Positions 45,906 through 64,000 of a DNA stretch of 64,000 nt are shown here, one piece after another. The DNA is taken from contig BTUO01000001.1 of NCBI GenBank assembly GCA_045862895.1, forward strand, positions 998,890-1,062,889. Reading direction: 5' to 3'. Position numbers and translations under genes: made by a program. Positions within the stretch are counted from its first letter, which is position 1, and each line of letters starts with the position of its first letter. The notes beneath the pieces are model-generated. The model had not been told where the DNA came from. It was given only the letters and a program-made list of their open reading frames with translations, and made no database searches. The stretch is from Acidobacteriota bacterium. GTDB lineage: Bacteria > Acidobacteriota > Thermoanaerobaculia > Multivoradales > JAGPDF01.

Positions 45906-45940
45906 GCCGGCGCAGAGTCTGAGCCCGGGGGCGCCGCTTG

Positions 45941-48620: not shown

Positions 48621-49208
48621 CTAGCGCGAAACCCTTACACCGCAACTGCAGTCGAGACAGCCGTGGTCGGCGCAGGTGCGGCAAGAGCGTTGGAGATCGG
48701 CCCGCAGCGCCGTGCGCGCCCGGTGGAGCCGGACCATGGCGTTGTTGGCGGTGAGGCCCGCCCCGCGGGCGAAATCGGCCGGCCGGCTTCCTTCGAGGTC
48801 GACCCGGCGCAGGATCTCGCTGTATTCCGGACGGAGCGCCGGGAGCAGCGCCTCGAAGCAGTGGCAGAGGGCGGCCTCGATCTCCGGCGGCGGCTCGCTC
48901 GCGTCCCCGAGCTCGCGCGCCAGCGCTTCGAGGCCACGCGCCTCCGCGCCGCGTCGGCGATAGTGGTCGACCACCGCGTTTCGCAGCAGCCGGTAGAACC
49001 AGGCCACCGCCCGCTCCTCATCGCGAATCTCTCCCGCCTGCTCGAGTCCGCGCACGAACGCCTCCTGCAGGATCTCCTCCGCGGCAGCCCGACTCTCGAC
49101 TCGGCGCTCGAGAAACGCGAGGAACCGCCGGTGATTCTCGACCCAGGCGGCGACGACCGCGGGCTGGGGTAGTTCCGGCGCTGGCTGCTCGTGTTCGAGA
49201 CTCTCCAT
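48621..49208 (-). CDS. ECF sigma factor with C-terminal Cys-rich extension (CorE-like, copper-responsive type)
   Basis: Sigma-70 region 2 and 4 patterns ([12 protein letters not shown]..., ...[35 protein letters not shown]), then the tail [15 protein letters not shown]. Start chosen at MESLEHEQ. It sits directly upstream of copA and the multicopper oxidase, as does CorE in Myxococcus xanthus. Confidence 0.65.
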
Positions 49209-49273
49209 CACGCGACGATACTCCCCTGGCGAAGACCGTCCGCCGCAGGACTGCCTGAGGCAGGGCAGGCGAG

Positions 49274-50113: not shown

Positions 50114-53100
50114 CTACCTGATTGCGGTCTTGGTGGCTCCACCGTGCTCGGTGGCGCGAGGTCGACAGCGCACTTTGACTGCCCCCTTGGTGAAGGCATC
50201 GTCGGTAGCCTTGCTGGACCACACAAAGGCCTCACCGGGCCGTAGGTGGGCCATCTTCTCCGGCGTCAGACCGCCGAGGGCCGCGTTGGCCTTCTGGATG
50301 TGCTTCAGCCACGCCGGCGAGTTGAACTTGTGGAGAATGATCTGGGTCGAGAGCTCGATGAGCTGCACTGGGACGGAAGGTGGGTCCTGGCTCGCGACCA
50401 TGATGCTCGTGCCCTTATGCCGCATCTCGCGGACGACCTCGACGAGGCCGGCAACGAGGTCGGGGCTCTCAATGTACTTATGCGCTTCGTCGAACACGAC
50501 GAGCTTGTTGAACTTCCGCCCTTCGAAGGTGACCTCGGCGAAAAGCTGGAGCAGCACGACGAAGAGCCCGAGGGCTTGGTCCTTCTCCATGAACTCGTCG
50601 CGAAGGTCGACGATGACTAAGCGGCCCGGCCTGATCACCTCGCCGAGGTGCGTGTTGTCGTCGATGAACTCCTCGGCGAGCTCGAGGCGTCCGTGCGCGA
50701 GCTCCTTGATGTGCTCGGGCATGCGCGAGTCGTCGATGCCCTTCCTGAGCCCCGCGAGCGTCAGGTCGTCGCGCAGCTGCTTCATGATGCGGTTGAGCTG
50801 CCGGATGTACGTCGCCTGGTTGCCGACGGCACCCATCAGGAAGCGCCAGTGGCTAGCCTGGAGCTCCGCGGCGGCGAACTGCAGGGGTCGGATCTCGATC
50901 GCCGGATACTCGGCGCGGCGCTCCTCGAGCTTGTCGGCGGGCACGAGCAGCAGAACATCTTCGAGCGCACGAGGCTCAGCCCCGTACCTCTCTCGAAGCG
51001 TGGCGACCTGAGCCGCGTCGCTGTTCGGGGCCACCATCGAGGTGAACTCCGGCGCGTAGTCCATAGTCGGGCTGTAGTGGAAGATGACAGTCGCGAGCGG
51101 CTGGGGAAGCCGGTTGATGCCGTCGATGGGCAACGACGCCATCTCCGCCACCGTGCCCAGCGTGTAGCTCTTGCCTCCTCCCTGGACCCCGAAGAGGCTG
51201 ATCGTGTGGGTTTGGTTGAGGTCGAGCGCGACGGTTCGGCCGGCGACCTCTCCAAGGATGCCGTACTGCGGCGAAGCCCCGGCGACACCGAGCATGATGT
51301 CGTAGGCGGGGCCATCTCCAGCCGTCCGGGCGGCCTCGCGGTGCGCGCCGAAGCCCTCCTCGTCGGTCGGAGGCGCGGACACGGGCTTGCTCGGCACCAG
51401 GTCGGCGGTTGCCGCCGGAACGAGCGGCTCCGAGGGCGTGCCGGGGCGCGGCGACGCAGGCGTCACCGAATCAGGCAAGAGCTCGCCGTCGCGGCCGGGC
51501 GTAGATGAAGTCGGCGACGGGTTCTCTGCCCGAGCTCTATCGACCTCCCCTTCCTTGGGCGCCAGCGCCTCGTCGCGCCCGCGGGGCGACACAAGCTCGT
51601 CCCAGGACACCGTGCGCTCGCGGCTGCCTCCGAGAAACGCCGCGGCCTCGAGAGTCGGAATGCTCGGAGCGCGGTGACGACGACGGGTAAGCTCCGCTTC
51701 GCCGCGTTCTGCTGGCGGTGTCTCTGACTGGGCATCTTCGACGCCCGCAGCCATCTCCTCTGGCGTTGGTACGGCCGCGTCAACGAGCTCGCGGATCAGG
51801 CTCACACCCACCCGATGAAATTCGACACCGTTTTCGTGCTCGATCTCGGTTCCGTCTTTCTCGAAATCAAAGACGATGGCACTTCGCGTGAAAACGAGGC
51901 GATACCCATCTTCGAGCGAGCGCAATAGGAAGCGCGCCTCTTCGGCAGCGCGCCCGTCCATGACTCCGTAGCGCACGCCGCGGTCGAGGTAGAACTCCAG
52001 CAGCGCGACGAGCTCCCGCGTCTTGATGAGGCGGTCCGCTCGATCGACCGGACCTCGAAGCGGATCGAAGTGCGTGGAAAGGACTTCCTGACTCTGCGCG
52101 ATTTGGATCGTGATCCGATCCTTCAGCGCGGTGTAGGCGGCCAGGTCGCCGACGGCGGTGTAGCACTTCACCTCGACTAGGCGGCAGGTGATAGTGCGCT
52201 CAGCGGCGTTGAGGTCGAAGAGGCCCAAGTCTGTCCGCTTGAAGCTGACGTCGTTCCCAAGCTCGTCGGCGATCTGCTTCAGCGACCGGTAGAGCTCGAG
52301 GTGAGCGTCCAGCGGGACCGCGATCTGGCTCTGGAACGCCCCTTGGTGCTCCAGGTACATGCGCGACAGCGCGAGGCCCAGCGCTTCCGCGCGTTGCGAC
52401 GGCGCCGAGATGAGCTTGAGCGCGAGCCGGCCTGAAAGCGAACGAAGCTGGTCGAGCACGGCAACTGCGTGTTGGCCGTCTGCCTGGAGGCCATAGGCCT
52501 CCAGGACCGGAACCAGCATCGCCTCAAGCTCTGCGACCGAGCGAGACGTGATCGTTAGGCGATGCCCGAGTGATGCGCCGACGTCGGGGGAGTGGTCGAT
52601 GAGGTAATCGGGGCGGTCCCGTCGGCCACCGTGATCGAAAAACTCGATTCCCATGTTGCGGTCAAGGGTGAGCACCCAGTCGCTCACCTCGTGGACCTGG
52701 TACAGCAGCGCGCGGTCCGTGGCGTCGAGGGCGAGGGCGATGACCGGCCGCATGTCGATTCCCGCCTGACCCGTGGCCACTGCGGACGTTGCATTCGAGA
52801 TCATCGCCGGGAGCGTCGACAGCAGATCGGTCAGCTCCTCGCTGCCAGCGAGCGGTAACGCGATGCCGTGGCGCGGCGTGCGCCGCCAGGCGATCGTCGC
52901 GTCGTCCTCCTGGTAGTCGACGTGGTAGTCCTGCAGGAGTCCGTGGACGGGGGCCGCCGACTCACGCATCGATGCGTTGGTCGCGCCAACCTCCCCTGCG
53001 GGGAAGAGGTCGAAGAGGAACGTGAGGTGGGCGGAGAACCGGTCCGGGTTGGCGCGGAAGTCCGACGTGCTGCGAACGCCCAGCGCGAGCTTCGGCCGAA

Positions 53101-55705
53101 GGTGATCGCTACCGGGCGTTGCGAACGCGTCCGCCTCCCGGCCGCTCTGGCTTCCCGACGGTGAGAGCAGCTCGGCGAGCCCTTCGCCGACTCCTGGGGC
53201 GTCGGCATCGGGAACGAACAGCCGAACGTCGTACCGGATGTCATTGAAAACCGGCTGGCGTTGCAGCGCGAGCAACATCTCCGCAAGGACGCCGGCGCGG
53301 CCCGGATTGAACGCGTTGATGATGAGCGTGGTGATGTACGGGTGCTGGACCAGATAGCGTTGCACACGGGCAGCGAGGGTTTCACCGTCGATCGCAGCAC
53401 CGCCAATTCCCGGCTCCGGGAGACCAAATGCGGAACAAACCTCCCCGAGGAGACCACGCGGGTCCGGCTCGTGGGCAGGCGCGTAGAGGGTCCAGTGCGG
53501 TGCCAGGTTGTCGATTGGGGTCATCAGTCGCCCGCTCACAGACTGCCCGCCCGGAGTGGCGAGAACCGGCGGGTGAGCGACTGGAGCGAGCTGCTTTAGA
53601 AGCGCATCTCTCGTGGCCATCACGAACTCGGCCGGGCCCTTGCGGGCCGCCTCGAGCCACTGCGCTCCGGTCTCTGCCCACGCTGCGAACCAAAGAACAC
53701 GGAGCGGATGCGTCGGCGCCACGAGGGCGGCCTCGCGCCGACGGCCGCGATGGTCGATGACCGCGACGGTCACCGTGTCCAAAGTGAGCATGCGCCAGAG
53801 GTCTGCGAGAGCAGCCTTCCCTTCGAGGCTGTCACTCGCTTCGGCGCGCCGGAGGAGCGCCGCGATGAGGCTCTGGTACGCGCCCGCGTACGCCACCGCC
53901 AGCGGCCGGAGCGCCAGGAGATCGGCGGCCTGCGTGACGAGCTCGCTCGCGCCAGAACGGACCGCCTCGAACCATGCCGTTCGGGCTTCGAGGAAGTCGC
54001 GGCACTCATCCGCGGACGGCCATCGTGCTTCCTCGACCGTCGGCTTGTCGGGCTGCCCCATCCGAACGGCGATGCGCCAGGCGACAGGCCCGGTCGGGGC
54101 CGCCAGGATCGCCTGTTCGAGCCTCTTCAGAGCTCGAGAGACGGACACCTGGACTGTCCCATCCCGACCGAACTGCACCTCCAGCATCTCAGAGCCGGAC
54201 GCCTGGCCGTGCCGTCGCTCTGCCCAGGCAGCACTCTGAGGCGCGATGGAAGATGGATCCCGGCCGTCCACGACGGCGCTGAACTCCAGGCGGAGTCGCG
54301 CGTGCTCCAAACTGTCGTCGTTCGGCACGGCTCGCTGCGGTGGCGGGGGTGGCTCGTCAACCTCCGTAACGACGTAGAAGAGGTCGCTCTCGTTGGGCCG
54401 CGGAACGGAGGCGTCTTCGTCGTCGACAGCCCACGGCAGCGCGTGACCACTCTCGTCGATCAGGGGGATGAGCTCGCCATCCTCGGTCTGTGCGAGCACC
54501 CGAACGAAGTGCCAGCCTTCTTCCCAATCGACCTTATGAAGACTATTCAGGTCGATCGTCGCGGTGAGCCGGGAGGAGGTCCACGCCTTCCTGCTGCGAA
54601 CGAGCCCGACAGGGCCGGTCTCTTTAGAGATCACTTGCGCGACGAATTTTGTGAGGCCCTCGACCCGTGACGGGTGCGGATCAACGCGGAATCCCACGTT
54701 GAACTTGCGGAGCCCGCCCTTGCCCACGACGAGGATCTTCTCGTCGGCCTTGAGCTCCTGAAGCTTCGAGTCGGAGGGGCTGTCGCCGACCGTTGGCAGC
54801 TCCACCACGACATCGCCAATGAAGACGTGACCCTGCTCGTTGGCATTCTCCTCGAACTCCCAACGATGGAAAGCGAACCTCCAGCAAGCTCGGTCCAGAA
54901 CGATTCGGCGCGTCCACTCGCGCGGGTCCTCGACGCCCGCGTCGCTTAGGAACTCGCCAAGCTGGCCCTGCAATGACCCCTTCTTCAGCCCCAGCTCCAG
55001 CACGCGACCGCGCTCGGAGCGTCCGGACCAGGTCAGCGTGCGTACCGCGTCGCGGTTCAGTGCGATGCGGGCAGGCGCCTTGGTCGGATCGGCCAAGAGC
55101 TCGAAGTCCGGTACCAAGGCGAGCTCGAACAGCCCGGCACCTACAGCCTCCGGATCCCCGCCATTCATCTTCGCTGTCAGAAGAAAGCGCACTACTGACA
55201 AGGGCTCGGCGAAGGGCCAGGGCGTGTCGCCTTCGAGCCTGCGAAGGCCCTCGGCGACGGCACCTCGAATCGCCGCTGGTAGGTCCCCAATCAGGCGGTT
55301 GCGGAGGCGCGTGTAGACGTCACCCAACGAAACGTCCTCGAAGGTCGCGATACCGAAACTGTCCTCGGCGGCAGCCCGAACGTCGTTCGGGATGAACACG
55401 AGGAGTGGTGGTCGCTGCGCGCCATCCGGCAGCGGGTTGCGAAGCTCGACGAGCTTCGTTGAGGTAACCGTCAGCGTTGGAGGCGTCGAGCTGTGCCCGT
55501 TGCCGAGGATGACGACCTGAGCCTCGGGGACCTCGGCACGCAAGCGGCCGCATAGCCGCACCATGAGATCGCGGTCCAGATCGGTGAGGCGCATGCAGTG
55601 CCCTCGGCCGCGCAAGCGCAGGAGCTCGGCGAGGCGTGGGAAGAGCTCGACCTCGAGCTCGGCGGCCAGATCGTGAGGCTGGATCGTGCGGAGGCCCTGG
55701 CTCAT
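50114..55705 (-). CDS. giant (1863 aa) protein with C-terminal HerA/FtsK-like DUF87 ATPase (DptH/DndH-like architecture)
   Basis: The C-terminus has Walker A ISLFGVQGGGKSYTLGTVAEM and Walker B/DEAH-like LVVFDEAHKYIESPD...SIMVASQDPPSVP. The start overlaps the upstream gene's stop. Confidence 0.7.
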   Translation of the reverse strand: MSQGLRTIQPHDLAAELEVELFPRLAELLRLRGRGHCMRLTDLDRDLMVRLCGRLRAEVPEAQVVILGNGHSSTPPTLTVTSTKLVELRNPLPDGAQRPPLLVFIPNDVRAAAEDSFGIATFEDVSLGDVYTRLRNRLIGDLPAAIRGAVAEGLRRLEGDTPWPFAEPLSVVRFLLTAKMNGGDPEAVGAGLFELALVPDFELLADPTKAPARIALNRDAVRTLTWSGRSERGRVLELGLKKGSLQGQLGEFLSDAGVEDPREWTRRIVLDRACWRFAFHRWEFEENANEQGHVFIGDVVVELPTVGDSPSDSKLQELKADEKILVVGKGGLRKFNVGFRVDPHPSRVEGLTKFVAQVISKETGPVGLVRSRKAWTSSRLTATIDLNSLHKVDWEEGWHFVRVLAQTEDGELIPLIDESGHALPWAVDDEDASVPRPNESDLFYVVTEVDEPPPPPQRAVPNDDSLEHARLRLEFSAVVDGRDPSSIAPQSAAWAERRHGQASGSEMLEVQFGRDGTVQVSVSRALKRLEQAILAAPTGPVAWRIAVRMGQPDKPTVEEARWPSADECRDFLEARTAWFEAVRSGASELVTQAADLLALRPLAVAYAGAYQSLIAALLRRAEASDSLEGKAALADLWRMLTLDTVTVAVIDHRGRRREAALVAPTHPLRVLWFAAWAETGAQWLEAARKGPAEFVMATRDALLKQLAPVAHPPVLATPGGQSVSGRLMTPIDNLAPHWTLYAPAHEPDPRGLLGEVCSAFGLPEPGIGGAAIDGETLAARVQRYLVQHPYITTLIINAFNPGRAGVLAEMLLALQRQPVFNDIRYDVRLFVPDADAPGVGEGLAELLSPSGSQSGREADAFATPGSDHLRPKLALGVRSTSDFRANPDRFSAHLTFLFDLFPAGEVGATNASMRESAAPVHGLLQDYHVDYQEDDATIAWRRTPRHGIALPLAGSEELTDLLSTLPAMISNATSAVATGQAGIDMRPVIALALDATDRALLYQVHEVSDWVLTLDRNMGIEFFDHGGRRDRPDYLIDHSPDVGASLGHRLTITSRSVAELEAMLVPVLEAYGLQADGQHAVAVLDQLRSLSGRLALKLISAPSQRAEALGLALSRMYLEHQGAFQSQIAVPLDAHLELYRSLKQIADELGNDVSFKRTDLGLFDLNAAERTITCRLVEVKCYTAVGDLAAYTALKDRITIQIAQSQEVLSTHFDPLRGPVDRADRLIKTRELVALLEFYLDRGVRYGVMDGRAAEEARFLLRSLEDGYRLVFTRSAIVFDFEKDGTEIEHENGVEFHRVGVSLIRELVDAAVPTPEEMAAGVEDAQSETPPAERGEAELTRRRHRAPSIPTLEAAAFLGGSRERTVSWDELVSPRGRDEALAPKEGEVDRARAENPSPTSSTPGRDGELLPDSVTPASPRPGTPSEPLVPAATADLVPSKPVSAPPTDEEGFGAHREAARTAGDGPAYDIMLGVAGASPQYGILGEVAGRTVALDLNQTHTISLFGVQGGGKSYTLGTVAEMASLPIDGINRLPQPLATVIFHYSPTMDYAPEFTSMVAPNSDAAQVATLRERYGAEPRALEDVLLLVPADKLEERRAEYPAIEIRPLQFAAAELQASHWRFLMGAVGNQATYIRQLNRIMKQLRDDLTLAGLRKGIDDSRMPEHIKELAHGRLELAEEFIDDNTHLGEVIRPGRLVIVDLRDEFMEKDQALGLFVVLLQLFAEVTFEGRKFNKLVVFDEAHKYIESPDLVAGLVEVVREMRHKGTSIMVASQDPPSVPVQLIELSTQIILHKFNSPAWLKHIQKANAALGGLTPEKMAHLRPGEAFVWSSKATDDAFTKGAVKVRCRPRATEHGGATKTAIR

Positions 55706-57387
55706 GGCATCCCCCCGTTGGTGCCATTCGGGGGCTCGATGCGATAGCGCGGCGTTACCGTCTGGGAGACGTAGGCGTCGGAGAGGTCGCGATAGAACCC
55801 GACCTCACGCAGGCGGGCTGTGAAGGCGGCCGCGTTCCCGCGCAGCGCGGCTCGGTCCTCGATGCTGGGGGCGCCAAAGCCATCTCCCCGAGGCAAGCGG
55901 TCGATGTGCAGTCCGTAGCGTTCGCGCAGCCAGGTCAGCAGTGCCTCGATCCGCATCTCGCCGGTGTAGAAGGGCCCGCTCGGCGTGTCCTGATGCAGCA
56001 CCGCGATCTGCAGCAAGACCTCGAGAAGGCGGCTGTCGAGCACGAAGCGCCGTGCAGCTCCTTTCGTCCGCCCCTGCGCGATGAGCGCTCCAGGGCGGTT
56101 CTTCATGAGCAATGAGTCGATGCACTCGGTGATGTACTGGCGATGGAACCTGCCACGTAGCGCCACGAGCATTTCGACGTAGGTGTCGAATTCCGAGAGC
56201 TTGAGGTCGAGGACCGCTTTGAGCTCCGGGTCGAGGTCGGACTCGGTGTTGCCCGCGGAGTCCTGGACGAGCGCGTAAACTCGTGCGCCGAAAAACTTCG
56301 CACGCTCGTCTTTGTGCAGCGGTTCGAGCAGCTGAAGCACCTCAGGGACGCCGAGCTCCTCGCCCTTGGGCCGATGAAGTTTGCCCGTCCTGACCATCGA
56401 CTCGCCGAACTCGTCAAGCTTCTTGAATGAGAAGTAGGCCTTCACGAACGAAGGGATGCGCCGGTAGTGCAAGTCGGCGCTCCGCACGGCCAATTGCGCC
56501 GCGGCTCTTTCGGGCTGGCCCGCGACATCGACGAACAGCCCCACGCGATACGGGCAGTCGCCGTGCGGATTGTCAGCGCTCCGCGGGTCTACTGGGCAGG
56601 CACTCGGCGCGCAGATCGGGTCCGCCCCCTTCCGCTTTACCAAGGCCGGGAGGAGCTTGAACAGGCGCAGATGGTAGAGCGCCAGGTGGAAGGCGAGCAG
56701 AACCTTTAGGTAGTCGACCATCACCGAACGTGGGATATGCCGCTCGTAGAAGAGCAAGCGCTTGATGTCCTCGGCGAGGAGGTCGGCCGCCCCGATGCAC
56801 AGCGGCGTGAAGCTGTCGCGGCCGCTGCGGGTGTCCGGTGCGTCTTCTACCTGCTCCGTGAGACGCAAGAGCGCCTGCGTCTCGACGTCGAGGACAGCCG
56901 CACCATCCGTCCTTCCCGTGACCTTGTCGTGTCCCTGGAAGAAGAACCGGTTCAGCTGCTCGATCGCAGCCTGCCCAGCGCCTTTTCGCGAGTGGTAGAG
57001 CGTCTCGTAGAGATGCTGCGCCGCCCCGTAGTCGCGCGAGTGCTTCGGGTTGCGGAAGCGGTATGTGAACCCGTGGAGCGGGCGAGGCGCGGCCACCGCC
57101 TGGTTCGATTTCCCCCGGTTCACGACGTCCATGAGGTGGGTTTCGACCCACCGCTCGAGGACTTCCCGGTACTGCGTGAAGCCCGTAAACCACTCCGGGT
57201 GCTCGAGGAACTCGTCCACGAAAGCTTCCACCGAGAGCTCGAAGCGGCGCTTGAGACGGCTCGGAAAGCCGTTGTGTGCGAGGCGGGCGAACAGCGCCGT
57301 CAGCACGCGGTCCATCTCGAGCTGTTTGAAGTCGAGGTAGGACACCTTTTTGGAGTTGAACGCGCGGTCCTTGCTCGACAAGCCCAT
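55702..57387 (-). CDS. hypothetical protein (561 aa), middle gene of putative defence operon
   Basis: Protein-like composition, translationally coupled on both sides, no recognised motif. Confidence 0.5.
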   Translation of the reverse strand: MGLSSKDRAFNSKKVSYLDFKQLEMDRVLTALFARLAHNGFPSRLKRRFELSVEAFVDEFLEHPEWFTGFTQYREVLERWVETHLMDVVNRGKSNQAVAAPRPLHGFTYRFRNPKHSRDYGAAQHLYETLYHSRKGAGQAAIEQLNRFFFQGHDKVTGRTDGAAVLDVETQALLRLTEQVEDAPDTRSGRDSFTPLCIGAADLLAEDIKRLLFYERHIPRSVMVDYLKVLLAFHLALYHLRLFKLLPALVKRKGADPICAPSACPVDPRSADNPHGDCPYRVGLFVDVAGQPERAAAQLAVRSADLHYRRIPSFVKAYFSFKKLDEFGESMVRTGKLHRPKGEELGVPEVLQLLEPLHKDERAKFFGARVYALVQDSAGNTESDLDPELKAVLDLKLSEFDTYVEMLVALRGRFHRQYITECIDSLLMKNRPGALIAQGRTKGAARRFVLDSRLLEVLLQIAVLHQDTPSGPFYTGEMRIEALLTWLRERYGLHIDRLPRGDGFGAPSIEDRAALRGNAAAFTARLREVGFYRDLSDAYVSQTVTPRYRIEPPNGTNGGMP

Positions 57388-60300
57388 CAGCGCATCTCCT
57401 CGGCCACCCCGGGAGGTGCATCCATCGCTCCGCGCGTCAGCGCCGCGGGCGCCTGGAGTGGTAAGTGGGCCATCTCGAGGCGCCCATCTTCATGGCGCTC
57501 TACACGGTAGAAGTCGTGGCCGGTAGTCGTCAGCAGCACCTCCTGGTAGGGCGCCGATCCGAGGACGTTCTTGAAGACTGCCAGACTCAGGTAGTAGCCC
57601 TGTTCCTCCTCGAGGCTCGGCCGGTAGCCGTGGTTGAGACGCTCCAGCATCTCGAACACGTCGAGATTGATGACGAGCTCCGCCTGGTTGTCCTGATCGT
57701 CGTAGCGGAGCACGAGCGCGCCCGGCATGTGCTCGACGAACCGTGCCCGGCTCGCGGCGTCGCGAACGCCGAGCTGGAAGCGGCTGACGTCGTAGAGCCG
57801 ATACGACCGGATCGTGCCGTGCTCGACCTGGCGGACCTGGAGCGCGAGGCTGCCCGAGAGGCGCGTAGGGTCGAACAGCCCCTCGCCCCGGTTGATGGCC
57901 TGCAGCACCTCGGGGAGCGCGAGCTCGGGCATGGCTTCCCGGCTCACCATCTTCAGCATTCGATCGCCTGAGCGGTACGAGAGCATCGCGCGCCAGCCGC
58001 CGTCGCGTCGCTCGAAGAACGCCCGCCTGCGCGCCATGGCGACGTAGCGCCGATGAGTTTCCGTCCGGTGGGGCGTGGGTTTGCCGGAACAGTCTCGCGG
58101 AAGATTCTCGTAGAGCGCTCGCAACACCTCGTGGTCATAGCGGCCGCGGTCGGCAAAGCCGAAGCGGCTCCTGTCTTGGGACGGGCTCACGAAATCGAGG
58201 CCGCGGTCGAGGCGTGGGTCACCCGCTGCACTAACATCCACATCCCGAAGCAAAGTGAGTAGCCGGTCGACTGTCGCCGACTCCGCGCCCATCCACGCGT
58301 TGAAGTAGAAGGCAGCCGCGATCTCATCACGCCGGCCGTCCGCGTAGAGCTTGTGAATCTCGGCGCAGTCGCGGGCGGATGTGAGCATGAATGCGAGCGC
58401 AGAGCGAAGATCCCGCAGCGTGATGTGCAGCCTCCCGCGAAGGTGCGTGAGGGTGTAGAGCGTCTTTAGCCGCTCCAGCACCTGCGGCCCGGCCGTGCGA
58501 TCTTGAAACGTTTGCACGTTGTGGAGGGCATAGCAGCGCTCCTTGAGATCGCAGCTGTGGCAAGCGCCCCAGAACTTCGGATGGGTCAGGAGCAGCGTCT
58601 GACGCACGAGGATCGAGTCGACCTCCCCGCGTGGGCCGTCCCCGTTGGCCACCACGCTGCGGAGGTTCAGGTTGACCACCGCGACGCCATTGGCGCCGGC
58701 GCCGGTCAGGAGGCCCTCCTCGGCAATGCGCAGCAATGCCGGGAAGGCGGCCCGCTCCGTCTGCAGGAAGTCGACCAGCCGGCCCTCGTTGATTGCGACC
58801 AGGCGCGTCTCCTTGTCGGGCCAGGCCAACGGGTCGTCCCCCTTGAAGGGAGCGAAAAACTCGCGAAGCACCTCATCGTTGCCCCGGGTGTCTTCGTCCT
58901 GAGAGCCGTCGTAGTTCGTCAGGAAGGTCCGCTGAACGGTCCTGAAGCGTCGGCCATTCAGCAGCGCCTCGCTCGACACGAGCTGTGCCTGCTCGCCGGC
59001 CTGCACCTCAAGCTGCTGCAAGAAGGCGGTCTTGCCGTCCCCGGCGTTGCCGGTGATCAGAACGAGCTTAAACCTGCCGGCGATGACATCGGGCATCAGC
59101 CGGTCGTCAAGCAGGGTGGGCACATAGGTGCGGCGTCCGAGGTCATCGAGGCCGCGGGTGCCTGCGTTGGTCTGAGGGCTCTGGCTATACAGCGTGAGCA
59201 GGTAGTTTACGAACGGATTGGTGTTCGGCGGGATGTTGCCGCCGATCTCCGGGACGAGCAGCGAGTCTGAGCTATCGGCCGTCGGCTCTCGTCGTGCGCG
59301 CGTGACATCTTCCAGTGCCTCGAGCAGCGCCGAGGCTGAGGCAAAGCGGTCGGCGCGCTTGGGCGCGATGGCCTTCAGCACCACGCCCGTCAGCTCGGGG
59401 GCCAGGTTCGAGAGACCGGGAAGTTCGCGTGGGTCGTGCGCGTTCGTGGCCGGCGGAGGCGACATCGACTTCCAGGGATAGACACCGGTCAGCGCCTCGT
59501 AGACCGTGAGGCCCAGTGCATAAAGATCGCGGTCCACCAGCTCACTCGGCGACGGAGTCGCGGAGAGATCGAGGTCGGGCGGGAGGTACCGGCGGGAGCC
59601 GCCACCGTGCCCGTTGTCCTCGGTCCGCACGGCGACGTTGAAGTCGATGATCTTGGCTCCCCGCACCGTCCAGAGCAGGTTCGAGGGCTTGATGTCGCAG
59701 TGGTAGACGCCCTCACGGTGGAGGTGGACGAGCCCCTGTGTTACCTGCCGAAAGAGCACGAGGGCGTCTTCGGGCGCGAACCGCGCATCTCGGATGAGGT
59801 CGCCGACGTCCTCGCCGTCCACGTACTCGAACAGCAGGTACGGCGGACCGTCGCCCGGAAGCACGTTCGCGTCGATGACGCGCACGACGTGCGGATGCTC
59901 GGGCAGGTGGACGAGGGTCTTGTACTCCTTCTTGAGCCGCTCGAGGGTCGAGTGACGATCGCGAAGGATGATCTTGAGCGCCCGCGTCACGTCGCCCAGC
60001 GTGTCGACGACCTTGTAGACCACGCCGAAGGTGCCGCGTCCCAGCTTGGCCTGGACTTCGAGCTTGCCGGCGAGAAGCGTGCCCCTCGCGACGTCGGTCC
60101 AGTCGATGGCCGGCGGCTGCGTGGAAGGCGGCTGTGGGGGTGGAAGTTCGGCCGGTGGCGGCGCGACGTCGGGCTCGCTGGGGACTGAGGCGGCCAACGC
60201 TTGGTCGAGGGCCTGAAGCGCCGCGACCGAGGTGAGCCGCTGGCCCGGGTCGAAGGTACAGAGCCGCTGCAGCCAGGCGTCGAGAGGCGGCGCGATCTCG

Positions 60301-61583
60301 GCCCGGTGCGTCGACGGCTTCACCGGGAACACGCCGCCCTGATCGAAGAGCTCCGTCGGCGAGCCGAACGGCCGGTGCCCGGTGAACAGCTCGAAGAGCA
60401 CCAGACCGGCACCGAAGACGTCCGAGGAGGGGCTCGCGTTGGCCGGCTCCTTCCACGTCTCGGGAGCCGCGTAGTTCGCGTCGATCTTCTCAGCGATCTC
60501 TGCGGCGATCGTGAGGCTCCGGTCTGTCCCGGCGCGAGCGTGATCGAAGCCCGTGAGCCGGATGTGCCCGTCGCTGCCGAGCAGGATGGTGCTCGGTGAG
60601 AGGTCGCGGTGGACGACTTCGTGGGCGTGGCAGAACGCAAGCGCCTCGAGCAGCTCCCTGGCGACCCGTAGCTTCTGGTCGAGGGTCAGCGCCAGCGCGG
60701 GCTTGTCGATGTGCAGGCGCAGCGCCTGACCCGAAACGTCCTCGGTGACCAGCACGTAACGGTCTTCACTCTCGGTCGCGAAGAAGCTCTTGGCACCGGC
60801 GATGAACGGGTGCCCGGGGAGGCGGTTGAGCGCGAAGAAGGCGTTGGCGATCCGGGCCTTCTGCCGCTCGCGCTGGTCCGGGTCCGTCACGTAGGGGTCG
60901 GCTTGGTAGGCTCGCAGCAACGCCGTGCCGCCCCGCTTGCCCGCGAAAGTGTTGATGGCGCGGTACTCGGTGAAAGTGTCGCTGGCGCCGAGTCGCTCCA
61001 CCACCTCCCAATCACCAAGCACCAGGGGGCCCGAGCGAGACCTGGCGACACCGACCAGGGCGCTGCGCACCATGCCGTGCAGGCGCGAGATGTTCTTCTC
61101 GAAGCGCGCCGGGAGTCGACTCGCATTTTGGAAGAACGACGCGGCCTTCTTGAGGGTGGTGACGTTTTCGCTGTCGCGGCTGCCCTGGTCGACCAGGTGT
61201 GCGTCTGGGGCGGTCAGGAGCACCACCGCTTCGACGAACACGCCATCAAGGTCGCGGCGGCCGGGTTGGCTCTCGGTGAGAATGCCCTTCACCGTTCGCG
61301 CGTGCCCCCGCAGCTTCAGGAGTGGCGAAGTGAAGGGCTGGCGCCCCTCCGGATACCACTTGGGCCCATAGACATCGATGAGCCCGCGTGTGCCCTTGAC
61401 GTCGACAAGGTACAAGCCGTGCGGTGTCAGTACGGCGATATCCACTTCGAAGGACTCGCCGCCACGACGGATCTCGAAGTTGTGGAAGATGAGGTAGCTT
61501 CCGGGAAGTTGATCCCGAAGGTGCGCGATCGCCAGACGCTCGGCGTCGTTCACGGGTTCGCCGATAGGGACCACCGCTGCCAT
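57387..61583 (-). CDS. multidomain protein: N-terminal NERD nuclease-related domain, tandem Ser/Thr protein kinase domains, C-terminal P-loop NTPase
   Basis: NERD domain ERLAIAHLRDQLPGSYLIFHNFEIRRGGESFEVDIAVLTPHGLYLVDVKGTRG. Kinase 1 has VVHRDLSPSTILL, GFDHA and AAPE. Kinase 2 has FGVVYKVVD, ALKII, YHCDIKPSNLLW and IIDFNVAV. Walker A LVLITGNAGDGKTAFLQQL. Confidence 0.75.
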   Translation of the reverse strand: MAAVVPIGEPVNDAERLAIAHLRDQLPGSYLIFHNFEIRRGGESFEVDIAVLTPHGLYLVDVKGTRGLIDVYGPKWYPEGRQPFTSPLLKLRGHARTVKGILTESQPGRRDLDGVFVEAVVLLTAPDAHLVDQGSRDSENVTTLKKAASFFQNASRLPARFEKNISRLHGMVRSALVGVARSRSGPLVLGDWEVVERLGASDTFTEYRAINTFAGKRGGTALLRAYQADPYVTDPDQRERQKARIANAFFALNRLPGHPFIAGAKSFFATESEDRYVLVTEDVSGQALRLHIDKPALALTLDQKLRVARELLEALAFCHAHEVVHRDLSPSTILLGSDGHIRLTGFDHARAGTDRSLTIAAEIAEKIDANYAAPETWKEPANASPSSDVFGAGLVLFELFTGHRPFGSPTELFDQGGVFPVKPSTHRAEIAPPLDAWLQRLCTFDPGQRLTSVAALQALDQALAASVPSEPDVAPPPAELPPPQPPSTQPPAIDWTDVARGTLLAGKLEVQAKLGRGTFGVVYKVVDTLGDVTRALKIILRDRHSTLERLKKEYKTLVHLPEHPHVVRVIDANVLPGDGPPYLLFEYVDGEDVGDLIRDARFAPEDALVLFRQVTQGLVHLHREGVYHCDIKPSNLLWTVRGAKIIDFNVAVRTEDNGHGGGSRRYLPPDLDLSATPSPSELVDRDLYALGLTVYEALTGVYPWKSMSPPPATNAHDPRELPGLSNLAPELTGVVLKAIAPKRADRFASASALLEALEDVTRARREPTADSSDSLLVPEIGGNIPPNTNPFVNYLLTLYSQSPQTNAGTRGLDDLGRRTYVPTLLDDRLMPDVIAGRFKLVLITGNAGDGKTAFLQQLEVQAGEQAQLVSSEALLNGRRFRTVQRTFLTNYDGSQDEDTRGNDEVLREFFAPFKGDDPLAWPDKETRLVAINEGRLVDFLQTERAAFPALLRIAEEGLLTGAGANGVAVVNLNLRSVVANGDGPRGEVDSILVRQTLLLTHPKFWGACHSCDLKERCYALHNVQTFQDRTAGPQVLERLKTLYTLTHLRGRLHITLRDLRSALAFMLTSARDCAEIHKLYADGRRDEIAAAFYFNAWMGAESATVDRLLTLLRDVDVSAAGDPRLDRGLDFVSPSQDRSRFGFADRGRYDHEVLRALYENLPRDCSGKPTPHRTETHRRYVAMARRRAFFERRDGGWRAMLSYRSGDRMLKMVSREAMPELALPEVLQAINRGEGLFDPTRLSGSLALQVRQVEHGTIRSYRLYDVSRFQLGVRDAASRARFVEHMPGALVLRYDDQDNQAELVINLDVFEMLERLNHGYRPSLEEEQGYYLSLAVFKNVLGSAPYQEVLLTTTGHDFYRVERHEDGRLEMAHLPLQAPAALTRGAMDAPPGVAEEMR

Positions 61584-63010
61584 CAGGCCGCCTCCTCGAT
61601 GGCTCGCTCGACGAGTGAGACTCCCTGCCGCTCAGAACCGATCGCTCGCGAGAGCGCTTCGACCATATGGCCGACGAGAGTAACGACCTCTTCGCGCTTC
61701 TTGCCGGTCCACCACGGGATTCGCAGATCCGCCAGGAGCGAGCAGTCGAGGCTCGGTATGGAAGAACCAAAGGCTGTCCCGATTGCCGCGTAGTAGCCGG
61801 GCTCGGTCGCGAACACTGCCCAAGCGAACAATGCGTCCTCGCGCGACTTGCACCGGATTCGCACGAGGTGCTCGGATGCAGCGGATCCGTAATAGGAGGG
61901 CATCGGGAGAACGGCCCGGCCGATGATGCCGCCGAGCTGGCCACTACGAGGTAGGAGGAGGTCCCTCTCGGTGACGAGCTGTCGCTCGAGATCGGGAGTC
62001 CGGGATCTGGAAATGAGGTAGTCGCCGACTGGGTCGAGACGGAAGACCTCGGACGACGATAGAAACGGTACGCCATACGCCTTGTCTTCCACTTTGCGAC
62101 GGGCGCCGCGGTTTGGTTCGAAGACCTCATCGACGACGTCGCCCAGGCGCTGAGTGGGGCCCGAGGCCAGGCATTCGCGGGCGGCGCGGATCCCCGATGC
62201 GTGGTGGAACGCATCAAGTCGCCTCTGGAGAATCAACGACCTCGAAGTGGTCCAGAGGTCGCTGGTGGTCCGATGGCTCCAGCTCAGGCTCTTGGTCACC
62301 TTCTGAACAATCGTGGCCCGTAGCGATGCGGCTTCGGACCTGCGGACGGCGGAGATCTCGACGAGTTCATGCGCCGTCCGCTCCACATCACGGCCGAGTC
62401 GCGGCACCGGGAGGTCCGCGATGTGCTCCGGTTCGATGGACTGGATGATCGAACCGTAGGTGCCCGAGGTCACCAGCGGCACGCCGAACTTGCTGCTCAG
62501 GAAGGCGTAGACGTAGCCCGGGTTAACCTTCCTCGAGTCCGGGACCACCTTCATGACGTGCTGCGACGTCCACATGCCGTTCATATCCGGCCGCGCGTAG
62601 ACCATTCGGCCGATCGTGCCAGAGCACGAGATCAGGGTCATTCCAGGTTCGATGCGGAGGTAGGAGAGCTTCGCTGACTCAGCATCCCGCCGTCGGAGGT
62701 ACGGCAGAGTGCTGAGGTCTGCCTGGAGCATCGCGGCGCTCCCGAGGAACGGAACGCCGTGCTCGGGACCTTCGACGAATCTGCGGGAGAAGTGCGGGCC
62801 GTTGAAGATGCCACCCTCGTGACCAGCTGTCAGATCCGCCAGCCTCTCCTTCCGGCAAGTCAGCTCCTCCAACCGGATCCTGGCCTCGAGGGCACCGGAC
62901 ATGTACGGGCCGCAGTCGAGGCGTCGTCCGTCTCGGCGCATCCAGGCGCTGGGAATGGCCTTGACCTTCATGCGTCGGGCTCCGAGTGCTCGGCGCGGAC
63001 CGTGCGGCAA
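61583..63010 (-). CDS. HsdS-like specificity protein with two target-recognition-domain halves
   Basis: Repeated halves each carry GVPFL...(D/M)xLISxSG(T/R)...GxxGIIGRxV and LADL(P/R)(V/I)P-like segments typical of type I S subunits (Methylase_S). The stop overlaps the NERD-kinase start (ATGA). The N-terminal start is uncertain, possibly MKVKAIP at 62971. Confidence 0.55.
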   Translation of the reverse strand: MPHGPRRALGARRMKVKAIPSAWMRRDGRRLDCGPYMSGALEARIRLEELTCRKERLADLTAGHEGGIFNGPHFSRRFVEGPEHGVPFLGSAAMLQADLSTLPYLRRRDAESAKLSYLRIEPGMTLISCSGTIGRMVYARPDMNGMWTSQHVMKVVPDSRKVNPGYVYAFLSSKFGVPLVTSGTYGSIIQSIEPEHIADLPVPRLGRDVERTAHELVEISAVRRSEAASLRATIVQKVTKSLSWSHRTTSDLWTTSRSLILQRRLDAFHHASGIRAARECLASGPTQRLGDVVDEVFEPNRGARRKVEDKAYGVPFLSSSEVFRLDPVGDYLISRSRTPDLERQLVTERDLLLPRSGQLGGIIGRAVLPMPSYYGSAASEHLVRIRCKSREDALFAWAVFATEPGYYAAIGTAFGSSIPSLDCSLLADLRIPWWTGKKREEVVTLVGHMVEALSRAIGSERQGVSLVERAIEEAA

Positions 63011-63165
63011 GGGTCAGCGGTGGGCAGAAAGTCGCCGGCGACGGTCCTCTCCTTCCGCCGGAGCACGGGCACGGCTGGGTGTCCTTTGACGCGGCGGGCG
63101 CCGTCAGAAGAGACACCAAACCCGTCACAGATGGAGCGGCTGCAGGGCTTGAGGTCCCGCCGGCA

Positions 63166-63225
63166 CGCGACTGCCAGACGCTCGGCGTCGTTGACGGGCT
63201 CGCCGATGGCGACCACCATTGCCAT
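63166..63225 (-). pseudogene. duplicated N-terminal fragment (about 19 codons) of the NERD-kinase gene fused after HsdS-like gene 2
   Basis: MAMVVAIGEPVNDAERLAV versus MAAVVPIGEPVNDAERLAIAHL. The 63166-63260 block is about 85% identical in nucleotides to 61536-61610. The ORF then diverges into non-coding-like sequence (62968-63165). Confidence 0.45.
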
Positions 63226-63983
63226 CAGGCCGCCTCTTCGATGGCGCCCTCGACGAGCGTGCGCGCCTCGCGTTCCTTCGCCACGGCAGCGTGACGGAGC
63301 TCGGCGACCATCGCCCCTTCCTTGCCGATGCGCTTTCGGACCGGATCTCCGGGGTCGGGCACGACGACACGGCCAATCTGATGAACGTCGAGATGCGGGA
63401 TGGACGAGCCGTAGGCTCGAGCTTTGAGCTGCCGCAGCCCGAAATTGGACGTAAGGGCGACGAACACGAAGCCCGCAGTAGCTGCATCAGGACAGTTGAT
63501 CCGAATTGCATCCTCGGACACTGCGCCGCCCAGGATGTCGCCGTACGGCAAGACGGCCGTGCCGATGATCCCGGAGAGCTGGCCAGAACGAGGGATCAAG
63601 ACGGTCCTCTCCGTAACGACGTACTCCTGAACGCCCTGCTGATTCTTTGGTAGGAAGTACATCTCAGTAGGCTCACTCCACATCAGCGCTGCTGTTCCGA
63701 AGAACCGCACTCCGAAATCCGGATCGTCGAGGCGAATACGCTTGAATCGGTTCGGCTCGATGATTGAACTCGCAAGCTTGCCTACCGTCGTGGTTCCAAT
63801 AGGCGCGCTCTTCAGTTGAGCGACTACCTGATTGCCGTAGGGGCTGTGGAAGAACGCGTCGAAGCGCTCCTGGATTGTAGATGCGGGAACAGATACGCAC
63901 GAATACGGCATCGGGCTGCTCGCTGGGGTGAGCGGCTCCAAGTGCGCCAGAGTCTCCAGCTCGCGAACAGCGTCGGCAAGCAA
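63225..63983 (-). CDS. HsdS-like specificity protein 2 (single TRD half visible; 5' end may extend beyond window)
   Basis: Aligns to the C-terminal half of HsdS-like 1 (PRSGQLSGIIGTAVLP..., ...AYGSSIPHLD..., C-terminus LVEGAIEEAA versus LVERAIEEAA). The window ends 17 nt past the first Met. Confidence 0.5.
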   Translation of the reverse strand: MLADAVRELETLAHLEPLTPASSPMPYSCVSVPASTIQERFDAFFHSPYGNQVVAQLKSAPIGTTTVGKLASSIIEPNRFKRIRLDDPDFGVRFFGTAALMWSEPTEMYFLPKNQQGVQEYVVTERTVLIPRSGQLSGIIGTAVLPYGDILGGAVSEDAIRINCPDAATAGFVFVALTSNFGLRQLKARAYGSSIPHLDVHQIGRVVVPDPGDPVRKRIGKEGAMVAELRHAAVAKEREARTLVEGAIEEAA

Positions 63984-64000
63984 CTTGGAGGCGTTCGCGC

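What the first reader, a model, noticed from the sequence alone, without database searches (positions are those of the whole stretch)
50114..64000. Five-gene overlapping operon combining HsdS-like specificity proteins, a NERD-tandem-kinase-NTPase giant and a DUF87/HerA giant: candidate undescribed defence system
All genes are on the minus strand with stop/start overlaps: S-like 2, S-like 1, NERD-kinase, the 561-aa protein and the HerA-like giant. The components are each individually associated with anti-phage defence. HsdS target-recognition domains give DNA sequence specificity. The NERD domain is a PD-(D/E)XK nuclease. Tandem Ser/Thr kinase domains recall PglW of BREX type 2. The giant DUF87/HerA ATPase recalls DptH/DndH of phosphorothioate-dependent restriction. 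I do not recognise this exact combination as a named system. The locus sits in the accessory part of a conjugative element next to a cargo island, which is a typical location for defence islands. No methyltransferase, hsdM/hsdR or dnd/ssp genes are visible inside the window. The operon clearly continues upstream beyond 64000, so partner genes (for example an hsdM-like MTase) may lie just outside.
Basis: partly seen in the sequence, partly recalled or inferred. Interest (0 to 1): 0.85.

Follow-up and report, generated by a model that had tools for sequence, protein, structure and literature searches.

The report
Known MADS anti-phage operon, 3' part
The five minus-strand genes are the downstream part (mad5, mad5, mad6, mad7, mad8) of MADS, a methylation-associated anti-phage defence system described in 2023-24, so the locus is real and well read but is not an undescribed system.

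Summary
The combination already has a name. NCBIfam equivalog models for MAD5, MAD6, MAD7 and MAD8 all score above their curated cut-offs. PADLOC mad5-mad8 models hit in the same gene order. A 93%-identical protein in GenBank is already named "methylation-associated defense system protein MAD7". About 23 related loci from many phyla keep the S-Mad6-Mad7-Mad8 order at full length. In six loci checked by HMM or record annotation, an N6-adenine methyltransferase (mad2) lies 5' of the S gene, with or without mad3/mad4.

Two smaller points are added here:
- Mad6 C-terminus, Mad7 and Mad8 resemble SspF/DndF, SspG and DndH in that order. MADS restriction therefore probably works like a DndFGH machine that reads methylation instead of phosphorothioate. 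This is an inference.
- The locus carries two S genes separated by an 85-codon chimeric ORF. That ORF is made of a mad6 5' remnant fused to a mad2 3' remnant, a recombination scar from stacking a second specificity cassette.

Novelty: already known. Interest is low.

The parts
C-terminal half of a full-length MADS specificity subunit. The reading frame is open at the window edge.
   Evidence: No stop between 63998 and 63228. NCBIfam MAD5 positions 212-461, 166 bits. PADLOC mad5 1.1e-8. 75.6% identical to the C-terminal half of the S gene in L025.
62968..63225 (-). 85-codon chimeric ORF, read as a recombination scar. It consists of the first ~20 codons and ~90-100 nt of a mad6 (63224-63139) fused in frame to the last 41 codons of a mad2 (63093-62971). 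Its start overlaps the mad5a stop and its stop overlaps the mad5b start.
   Evidence: Direct repeat 63129-63257 vs 61487-61615, 79% identical. blastn 84% to the L002 S/mad6 junction and 79% to the L002 mad2 3' end. tblastn of L002 Mad2 aa 681-721: 61% identity, E 8e-8. Translation.
Complete MADS specificity subunit with two target-recognition halves.
   Evidence: NCBIfam antiphage_MADS5: 493.5 bits against a cut-off of 400, model positions 1-461, beginning at residue 14 of the TTG ORF. PADLOC mad5 1.2e-23 and Type I specificity models. Only 27-57% identical to S genes of related loci, while Mad6-8 are 54-93% identical.
57387..61583 (-). mad6. Domain order: NERD nuclease (aa 12-123), degenerate kinase (aa ~200-470), active Ser/Thr kinase (aa ~500-770), then an SspF/DndF-like P-loop domain with a Cys cluster and a C-terminal domain (aa ~780-1398).
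   Evidence: NCBIfam MADS6 773.6 bits against a cut-off of 460. Pfam NERD and 2x Pkinase. PADLOC mad6 1e-130. C-terminal piece: SspF 2.3e-22, DndF 1.4e-6. Invariant residues E46, D48, K63; K537, E553, H628, D630, K632, N635, D647; GNAGDGKT 845-852; C1008, C1011, C1017.
55702..57387 (-). mad7. Largely helical protein of unknown biochemical function, with an SspG-like C-terminus. It is the most conserved protein of the module.
   Evidence: NCBIfam MADS7 675.1 bits against a cut-off of 410. PADLOC mad7 2.6e-153 and SspG 9.4e-7. Precomputed Pfam PF26611 MAD7. 60-93% identical across phyla.
50114..55705 (-). mad8. DndH-like giant protein. The N-terminal ~1100 aa are unassigned, followed by a PD-(D/E)xK motif (D1159...E1178-x-K1180, about 52166-52231) and a C-terminal HerA/FtsK-type ATPase (aa ~1480-1863, about 50114-51268).
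   Evidence: NCBIfam MADS8 229.7 bits against a cut-off of 175, N-terminal model. PADLOC mad8 1.8e-44, C-terminal model; DndH 2e-6 and 7.5e-7; HerA models. PDB hits TdpA, HerA and DUF87. D1159, E1178, K1180, Walker A G1509-S1513 and Walker B D1739-E1740 are invariant even in homologues of 27-33% identity.

Best explanation
The locus is the 3' part of a MADS (methylation-associated defence system) operon: mad5a, a scar ORF, mad5b, mad6, mad7 and mad8. It sits on a Trb-type conjugative element in what the 100%-identical NCBI protein record calls an Acidobacteriota MAG.

Known from the published P. aeruginosa system:
- The methyltransferase Mad2 marks host DNA at a bipartite, Type-I-like motif.
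- Unmethylated phage or plasmid DNA carrying the motif is restricted.
- mad2-4 and mad6-8 are all needed for defence.

Inferred here (about 0.6 probability): restriction is carried out by a DndFGH-type machine.
- Mad6 is a DndF/SspF-like P-loop protein that has acquired a NERD nuclease, a pseudokinase and an active Ser/Thr kinase.
- Mad7 is the DndG/SspG-position subunit.
- Mad8 is DndH-like, with a conserved PD-(D/E)xK nuclease and a HerA/FtsK-type translocating ATPase.
- Such a complex would load on or track along DNA, be held off by N6-adenine methylation at sites set by Mad5, and nick or cut unmodified DNA.
- The kinase and NERD domains would act as regulatory or back-up effectors.

The two different S genes in tandem probably give the system two recognition sequences.
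For: Identity as MADS:
- NCBIfam equivalogs MADS5/6/7/8 all score above their curated cut-offs.
- PADLOC mad5, mad5, mad6, mad7 and mad8 hit in order.
- Precomputed Pfam PF26611 'MAD7' is recorded for the 561-aa protein, and a 93%-identical GenBank protein is named MAD7.
- The authors' own detection model requires MAD6, 7 and 8 and treats the other genes as accessory.

Conserved neighbourhood:
- S-Mad6-Mad7-Mad8 is conserved in order and at full length in about 23 loci from many phyla.
- mad2 (N6_Mtase plus HSDR_N_2) was confirmed by HMM directly upstream of S in L002, L005 and L028, and followed by mad3-mad4 in L019. ORF layouts suggest the same two arrangements in L011, L003 and L014.
- A full 8-gene operon is present on a Piscinibacter plasmid, and an MTase-S-kinase-Mad7-Mad8 operon in Hymenobacter.
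- A mad2 3' remnant lies inside the window.

DndFGH-like module:
- Mad6 C-terminus matches SspF at 2.3e-22 and DndF at 1.4e-6.
- Mad7 matches SspG at 9.4e-7.
- Mad8 matches DndH at 7.5e-7 and HerA-type ATPases.
- The three matches follow the F-G-H gene order.
- Rakesh et al. (PMC10853773) describe DndF variants with NERD plus inactive and active kinase fusions, and a DndH architecture ending in REase plus HerA/FtsK.
- Catalytic motifs are invariant across homologues.

Published biology of MADS.
Against: - The methyltransferase gene of this particular locus lies beyond the window and could not be retrieved. Completeness here is therefore inferred from relatives and from the scar.
- The restriction mechanism of MADS is still listed as unknown in a 2026 review.
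- The Mad7-SspG match covers only ~64 C-terminal residues. NCBIfam returned no Dpt/Dnd family for any of the five proteins at E<=0.01.
- The structure model of Mad7 was too poor to test its fold.
- PDB profile searches recovered only HerA-type ATPases.
- In P. aeruginosa, mad3 (ABC-type ATPase) and mad4 (DUF4276/Toprim; PMC12065111) are also required. The nuclease that acts may therefore not be Mad8 or Mad6.
Confidence: 0.93

Rival explanations
1. An undescribed defence system that newly combines HsdS-like, PglW-like and DndH-like parts.
For: Pfam-A recognises only NERD and Pkinase and returns nothing for the other four proteins. Without defence-specific libraries the combination therefore looks novel.
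Against: Curated NCBIfam equivalogs and PADLOC models of a named system hit all of the proteins in the same order. A near-identical protein is already annotated as MAD7. The published survey found 422 systems.
Confidence: 0.02
2. A phosphorothioate-dependent DndFGH/SspFGH restriction module that senses PT-modified DNA rather than methylated DNA.
For: SspF, DndF, SspG and DndH models hit Mad6 C-terminus, Mad7 and Mad8.
Against: The scores are far below those of the MADS models. NCBIfam returned no Dnd or Dpt family at E<=0.01. In the six relatives checked by HMM or record annotation, the genes directly upstream are an N6-adenine methyltransferase and an S subunit, with no dnd or ssp gene in the operon. 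MADS self-recognition was shown experimentally to depend on methylation.
Confidence: 0.03
3. A type 2 BREX / Pgl system, with the 1398-aa protein as PglW.
For: PADLOC PglW 1.7e-67 and NCBIfam BREX_PglW 1.2e-62 match the NERD-kinase half.
Against: The BREX_PglW score is 212 bits against a cut-off of 990, and only model positions 14-780 of 1391 align. None of the other proteins hits PglX, PglY or PglZ. Related loci carry Mad7 and Mad8 at those positions instead.
Confidence: 0.01
4. A decaying or rearranged MADS remnant that is no longer functional, for example because the methyltransferase was lost or disrupted by the recombination that left the scar.
For: The scar ORF shows that the locus has been rearranged. 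The upstream part cannot be seen. A public short-read assembly breaks inside mad5b.
Against: All four complete genes are intact and translationally coupled. Every catalytic motif checked is preserved. A restriction module without its methyltransferase would be expected to be toxic; deleting mad5 alone could not be achieved in P. aeruginosa.
Confidence: 0.07

Closest known systems
MADS, methylation-associated defence system (Maestri et al., bioRxiv 10.1101/2023.03.30.534895; Cell Host Microbe 2024). Models: PADLOC 'mads' and NCBIfam NF047740/41/33/42.
   Same: Mad5, Mad6, Mad7 and Mad8 homologues lie in the same order on one strand with overlapping genes. The equivalog models pass their cut-offs. 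In the relatives checked, an N6-methyltransferase (mad2) lies upstream of the S gene. The locus sits on a mobile element or defence island.
   Different: There are two tandem mad5 genes, separated by a chimeric mad6'/'mad2 scar ORF. The closest relatives (L002, L005, L028) lack mad3 and mad4 between mad2 and mad5, so this is probably a shorter subtype than the 8-gene P. aeruginosa operon. The presence of mad1-4 in this locus itself cannot be seen.
DndFGH / SspFGH (DptFGH) restriction modules of phosphorothioate systems, as dissected by Rakesh, Aravind and Krishnan, NAR 2024 (PMC10853773)
   Same: The three-gene order and sizes match. Mad6 has a DndF/SspF-like P-loop core, and the NERD plus inactive and active kinase fusion is a described DndF variant. 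Mad7 has an SspG-like C-terminus. Mad8 is DndH-like, at ~1860 aa, with a PD-(D/E)xK motif followed by a HerA/FtsK ATPase.
   Different: Sequence similarity is weak (E 1e-6 to 1e-22 over parts of the proteins). No PT-modification genes are linked. The partner module is an N6-adenine methyltransferase plus an S subunit. NCBIfam returned no Dpt family.
Type I restriction-modification (HsdM/HsdS/HsdR)
   Same: The S subunits have two variable recognition halves. Relatives carry an N6_Mtase-type methyltransferase. The published MADS motif is bipartite (TCAGNNNNTCC). S genes diverge much faster than the rest of the operon (medians of 39% against 61-72% identity).
   Different: There is no HsdR (SF2 translocase-nuclease). 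The restriction side is Mad6-8.
BREX type 2 / Pgl (PglW)
   Same: The N-terminal NERD plus tandem kinase architecture of Mad6 resembles PglW.
   Different: The C-terminal half differs. PglX, PglY and PglZ are absent. The PglW equivalog score is far below its cut-off.

Membership tests
MADS | Mad6, Mad7 and Mad8 homologues are all present (mandatory in the authors' MacSyFinder model). | tested here: met
   NCBIfam MADS6 773.6 against 460, MADS7 675.1 against 410, MADS8 229.7 against 175. PADLOC mad6 1e-130, mad7 2.6e-153, mad8 1.8e-44. Model definition.
MADS | Genes are co-linear and adjacent in the order mad5-mad6-mad7-mad8 on one strand. | tested here: met
   Coordinates and overlaps. The same order occurs in about 23 related loci and in annotated plasmids.
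MADS | Mad5 specificity subunit. | tested here: met
   NCBIfam MADS5 493.5 against 400 for the 61583-62971 gene. The second, cut copy covers model positions 212-461.
MADS | Mad2 N6-adenine methyltransferase in the same operon. | not testable with these tools
   It would lie beyond position 64000, and the look-ups for the upstream DNA failed. Indirect support: relatives L002, L005, L019 and L028 have mad2 5' of the S gene by HMM, and L032 and L034 carry an annotated N-6 DNA methylase there. A 41-codon mad2 3' remnant lies at 63093-62971.
MADS | Accessory genes mad1 (HTH), mad3 (ABC-type ATPase) and mad4 (DUF4276). | not testable with these tools
   They would lie outside the window. They are present in L019 by HMM and at the matching positions in L032 (annotated HTH, AAA ATPase and a hypothetical protein), with a similar ORF layout in L003 and L014. 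mad3/mad4 are absent between mad2 and S in L002, L005 and L028, and apparently in L011.
MADS | Methylation-dependent protection against phage or plasmids. | not testable with these tools
   This needs experiments. It has been shown only for P. aeruginosa SMC4386.
DndFGH / SspFGH | DndF/SspF P-loop kinase-like core. | tested here: met
   Mad6 aa 780-1398: SspF 2.3e-22, DndF 1.4e-6. Walker A GNAGDGKT and a Cys cluster are invariant.
DndFGH / SspFGH | DndG/SspG subunit (triple wHTH). | tested here: inconclusive
   SspG 9.4e-7, but only over Mad7 aa 477-540. NCBIfam returned only MADS7 for this protein. The AF2 model had pLDDT 46.5 and was unusable. No PDB hit.
DndFGH / SspFGH | DndH: a large protein ending in a REase followed by a HerA/FtsK ATPase. 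| tested here: met
   DndH 7.5e-7 over aa 958-1106. D1159/E1178/K1180 are invariant, then the HerA-like domain with Walker A and B. The N-terminal ~950 aa were not assigned.
DndFGH / SspFGH | Genetic linkage to dndABCDE or sspABCD phosphorothioate modification genes. | tested here: not met
   In relatives L002, L005, L019 and L028 the genes scanned directly upstream are mad2/3/4. The annotated operons of L032 and L034 contain no dnd or ssp gene. None of the five window proteins hit a Dnd or Ssp modification-protein model.
BREX type 2 (Pgl) | Full-length PglW together with PglX, PglY and PglZ. | tested here: not met
   BREX_PglW 212 bits against a cut-off of 990, aligning to the N-terminal half only. 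No PglX, PglY or PglZ hit among the operon proteins.
Type I R-M | HsdR translocase-nuclease alongside HsdM and HsdS. | tested here: not met
   S-like proteins are present and relatives have an N6_Mtase. No HsdR-type SF2 protein occurs in the operon here or in relatives.

The most novel reading that the evidence does not exclude
This locus would represent a short MADS subtype (mad2-mad5-mad6-mad7-mad8, without mad3 and mad4). In it, restriction is carried out entirely by a DndFGH-homologous Mad6-7-8 machine that reads N6-adenine methylation instead of phosphorothioate. New specificities would be stacked by cassette-type recombination through the conserved mad2 3' and mad6 5' flanks of mad5, as the chimeric scar ORF records, giving one restriction machine two recognition sequences.
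Probability: 0.35. Interest if true: 0.4.

Novelty: already known. Interest (0 to 1): 0.17.

Why it matters
As a discovery claim it does not stand, because the system is named, modelled in PADLOC and NCBIfam, and experimentally validated in P. aeruginosa. The residual value is modest.
- The restriction mechanism of MADS is still unknown (PMC12904381). The co-linear SspF/DndF, SspG and DndH resemblance of Mad6-7-8, with conserved PD-(D/E)xK and HerA motifs in Mad8, gives concrete mutants to test.
- The double-S locus with its mad6'/'mad2 scar shows how MADS specificities can be exchanged or stacked.
- Mad7 proteins that are 70-93% identical occur in MAGs and genomes labelled Acidobacteriota, Gemmatimonas, Cyanobium, Bradyrhizobium, Planctomycetota and myxobacteria. 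This, with the position on a conjugative element, points to recent horizontal spread.

Tried and rejected
Retrieving the DNA upstream of 64000:
- Exact-protein look-ups for the S genes found nothing.
- Look-ups for Mad6 and Mad7 returned only a 12.5-kb Logan contig that starts inside mad5b.
- An exact 42-mer from the window edge had no match in JGI metagenomes.
- Megablast of 56000-64000 against plasmids had no match.
The 1.2-Mb NCBI contig that holds the identical protein was not among the 30 loci it returned.

Structure of Mad7:
- AF2 with a 42-sequence alignment (71-93% identity) gave pLDDT 46.5 and pTM 0.28. It was too poor for fold search, so none was run.
- The second structure job and the remaining homologue searches were not used. 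The listed homologues would again have been too similar to one another.

PDB by sequence or profile:
- Nothing for Mad7.
- Only HerA-type ATPases for Mad8.
- Only generic kinases for Mad6.

Readings considered and rejected: BREX type 2, PT-dependent Dnd/Ssp and Type I R-M (see the membership tests). An early guess of an actinomycete origin, based on 70% GC, was dropped. The window carries an RND efflux system with outer-membrane factor proteins, and the identical protein is labelled Acidobacteriota.
Full report
**Observation**

The window has about 70% G+C, and the 50-64 kb stretch is slightly lower at 0.64-0.67. Four complete ORFs lie on the minus strand:
- 50114-55705 (1863 aa)
- 55702-57387 (561 aa)
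- 57387-61583 (1398 aa)
- 61583-63010 (475 aa from TTG; NCBIfam coverage places the likely start at the ATG at 62971)

A fifth ORF runs from 63225 upward. The ORF table lists it as starting at 63983. Translating from 63998 shows no stop, so the gene is cut by the window edge.

The junctions S1/mad6, mad6/mad7 and mad7/mad8 overlap by 1, 1 and 4 nt. The two S genes lie 254 nt apart.

**Identification**

Pfam-A sees only NERD, two Pkinase domains and a weak P-loop in the 1398-aa protein. It returns nothing significant for the other four proteins. Defence-specific libraries settle the identity.
- PADLOC gives mad5 (1.1e-8), mad5 (1.2e-23), mad6 (1.1e-130), mad7 (2.6e-153) and mad8 (1.8e-44), in gene order.
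- NCBIfam equivalog models antiphage_MADS5, 6, 7 and 8 score 493.5, 773.6, 675.1 and 229.7 bits. Their curated cut-offs are 400, 460, 410 and 175.
- The PADLOC mad6 and mad8 models cover only parts of the proteins. This is probably because the authors built them from HHpred alignments to PDB hits. The NCBIfam MADS8 model matches the N-terminus and the PADLOC mad8 model the C-terminus, so both ends of the giant protein are of MADS type.
- Precomputed Pfam annotation calls the 561-aa protein PF26611 'MAD7'.
- The database holds a 100%-identical protein from an Acidobacteriota MAG (AMXMBFR36_08900, 1.2-Mb contig). A 93%-identical protein from Gemmatimonas is named 'methylation-associated defense system protein MAD7'.

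MADS was described by Maestri et al. as an 8-gene operon (mad1-8) in P. aeruginosa SMC4386. Its reported properties are:
- mad2 encodes the methyltransferase.
- The methylated motif is TCAGNNNNTCC.
- Phages escape epigenetically, by acquiring the methylation.
- mad2-4 and mad6-8 are required for defence.
- mad5 could not be deleted on its own.
- 422 systems were found in RefSeq.

**Neighbourhood conservation**

A genome scan with Mad7 returned 30 loci from very different lineages at 70-93% identity. The records are labelled Cyanobium, Bradyrhizobium, Methylosinus, Sorangium, Planctomycetota, Acidobacteriota, Myxococcales and others.

In every locus long enough to judge, the order S-Mad6-Mad7-Mad8 and the full protein lengths are kept. 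Median identities are Mad7 72%, Mad8 62%, Mad6 61% and S 39%. The specificity gene therefore diverges much faster, as expected for a target-recognition subunit.

Upstream of S two arrangements appear.
- A ~700-aa N6_Mtase/HSDR_N_2 protein (PADLOC mad2, 1e-88 to 1e-97) lies directly before S in L002, L005 and L028. L011 has a similar ORF layout.
- In L019 the order is mad2, then mad3 (AAA_21 ABC-type ATPase), then mad4, then S. L003 and L014 have the same ORF layout.

Annotated plasmids agree.
- A Piscinibacter plasmid carries HTH, MTase, AAA ATPase, a hypothetical protein, a 443-aa hypothetical protein at the S position, the kinase, and two further hypothetical proteins at the mad7 and mad8 positions.
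- Hymenobacter carries MTase, S, kinase and two hypothetical proteins at only 30% Mad7 identity.
- A Bacillus thuringiensis plasmid keeps the kinase, a Mad7-like and a Mad8-like gene.

Its claim of novelty is not.

**How it probably works**

The published work establishes methylation-based self-marking and restriction of unmethylated motif-bearing DNA. The restriction step is still listed as unknown in 2026.

The anatomy here points to a DndFGH-type machine.
- The Mad6 C-terminal 620 residues match SspF (2.3e-22) and DndF (1.4e-6).
- The Mad7 C-terminus matches SspG (9.4e-7).
- Mad8 aa 958-1106 match DndH (7.5e-7), and its C-terminus is a HerA/FtsK-type ATPase. PADLOC HerA models hit it, and PDB searches return TdpA (9e-5), DUF87 and HerA chains.
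- The three matches are co-linear with the F-G-H gene order.
- Rakesh, Aravind and Krishnan (PMC10853773) already describe DndF variants that carry NERD plus inactive and active S/T/Y kinase domains at the N-terminus. They also describe DndH as a ~1700-aa protein ending in REase plus HerA/FtsK.

Alignments that include homologues of 27-33% identity show which residues are fixed.
- Mad6 NERD domain: E46, D48 and K63 are invariant.
- Mad6 second kinase: K537, E553, H628, D630, K632, N635 and D647 are invariant.
- Mad6 first kinase: only H325 and R326 are invariant. The motif is HRN in most homologues, so this domain is a pseudokinase.
- Mad6 P-loop domain: Walker A GNAGDGKT and a three-Cys cluster are invariant.
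- Mad8: D1159, E1178 and K1180 (a PD-(D/E)xK signature) and the HerA Walker A and B motifs are invariant.

My reading, which is an inference, is as follows.
- Mad2 and Mad5 methylate host sites.
- Mad6-7-8 assemble on DNA.
- The HerA-type motor of Mad8 drives translocation or capture.
- The Mad8 nuclease cuts or nicks DNA that lacks the mark.
- The kinase and NERD domains of Mad6 act as regulators or back-up effectors.

One caveat is that mad3 and mad4 (an OLD/Gabija-like ATPase plus a Toprim-family protein) are also required in P. aeruginosa. They could supply the nuclease there instead.

**The double S gene and its scar**

Directly after the stop of the edge-cut S gene, the sequence repeats the S/mad6 junction. 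MAMVVAIGEPVNDAERLAVA at this site compares with the true Mad6 start MAAVVPIGEPVNDAERLAIA. At the DNA level, 63129-63257 matches 61487-61615 at 79% identity, with roughly the first 95 nt about 90% identical.

The next stretch, 63093-62971, encodes the last 41 residues of a Mad2. It is 61% identical to L002 Mad2 aa 681-721 (E 8e-8) and ends in RAEHSEPxA. It runs into the ATG of the second S gene exactly as mad2 does in L002.

The two remnants are fused in frame into an 85-codon ORF. Its start and stop overlap the neighbouring genes, so translational coupling along the operon is preserved.

This is the footprint of a recombination between two MADS loci through the conserved flanks of mad5. It stacked a second, different specificity gene; the two copies are only 34% identical over their comparable halves. 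One other locus, L010, also has two S genes, with a mad6 5' remnant between them. [quoted passage not shown] A public short-read contig of the same element breaks inside mad5b, which may reflect this repeat.

**Context**

The rest of the window carries:
- a Trb-type conjugation system (TraG/VirD4, VirB11-like, TrbE/VirB4, TrbL, CagX/TrbG)
- ParA and ParB-KorB
- a Schlafen/AlbA_2 protein
- a cusCBA-like efflux system
- a multicopper oxidase
- a copper P-type ATPase
- an SSB gene convergent with mad8

**Rivals**

- BREX type 2 fails. The PglW equivalog scores 212 against a cut-off of 990, aligns only to the N-terminal half, and no PglX, PglY or PglZ is present.
- PT-dependent Dnd/Ssp fails on linkage. 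No dnd or ssp modification gene was seen in the relatives examined, and the partner module is a methyltransferase plus an S subunit.
- Type I R-M fails for lack of HsdR.
- A non-functional remnant cannot be fully excluded, because the methyltransferase is out of view. Intact, coupled genes with preserved catalytic motifs argue against it.

**What failed**

- Retrieving the upstream DNA.
- A usable Mad7 structure: pLDDT 46.5 from a shallow alignment.
- PDB relatives for Mad7.

**Verdict**

This is an already known system, MADS. Two minor additions come out of the analysis: the co-linear DndFGH-like reading of Mad6-8, and the S-cassette stacking scar. Interest is low.

Noticed in passing
window 62968-63225 (-): An 85-codon in-frame chimera of a mad6 5' remnant and a mad2 3' remnant lies between the two S genes. 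It is translationally coupled to both. It records a cassette-type recombination that added a second specificity gene.
   Followed up: yes
L010 4050-4400 (Acidobacteriota MAG JAJCXP010000366.1): This is a second, unrelated locus with two full S genes. A remnant of the S/mad6 junction (165 nt, 78% identical) and further mad6-derived sequence lie between them. S-gene stacking through the conserved flanks therefore appears to recur.
   Followed up: partly
window 55702-57387 and loci L002-L031: Mad7 is 70-93% identical between genomes and MAGs labelled Acidobacteriota, Gemmatimonas, Cyanobium, Bradyrhizobium, Methylosinus, Sorangium, Planctomycetota and Myxococcales. That is far more than expected for vertical descent and implies recent inter-phylum transfer of the whole cassette. 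The window's own source appears to be an Acidobacteriota MAG (AMXMBFR36).
   Followed up: partly
window 3548-17877 (+): A Trb/VirB-type conjugation module (TraG/VirD4, VirB11-like ATPase, TrbE/VirB4, TrbL/VirB6, CagX/TrbG) is followed by ParA and a ParB/KorB-like protein. This is the backbone of an ICE or plasmid-like element.
   Followed up: partly
window 31532-48583 (-): A copper and heavy-metal cargo island: a cusA-like RND pump, a CusB-like fusion protein with a heavy-metal-binding domain, two outer-membrane factor proteins, a multicopper oxidase, and a Cu P-type ATPase with YHS and HMBD domains.
   Followed up: partly
window 27698-28567 (-): A 289-aa protein with a Schlafen/AlbA_2 domain (7e-14). 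This domain is often found in defence-related or regulatory ATP-dependent DNA-binding proteins. Its role here is unknown.
   Followed up: no
window 49191-50045 (+): An SSB-family OB-fold gene lies convergent with mad8, 69 nt from its stop. The ORF as listed has a long, low-complexity N-terminal extension, so the true start is probably near 49.6 kb.
   Followed up: no
window 60600-60620 region (Mad6 aa 321-335) and alignment A5: The first kinase domain of Mad6 reads HRD in this window but HRN in most homologues. It also lacks the conserved catalytic-loop Lys and Asn. It is therefore a pseudokinase whose catalytic Asp may have been regained or retained here.
   Followed up: partly
L033 3974-7900 (B. 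thuringiensis pKK1): In the distant Bacillus version of the cassette, the gene before the kinase is a single 1308-aa hypothetical protein instead of separate MTase and S genes. It may be a fused modification-specificity protein.
   Followed up: no
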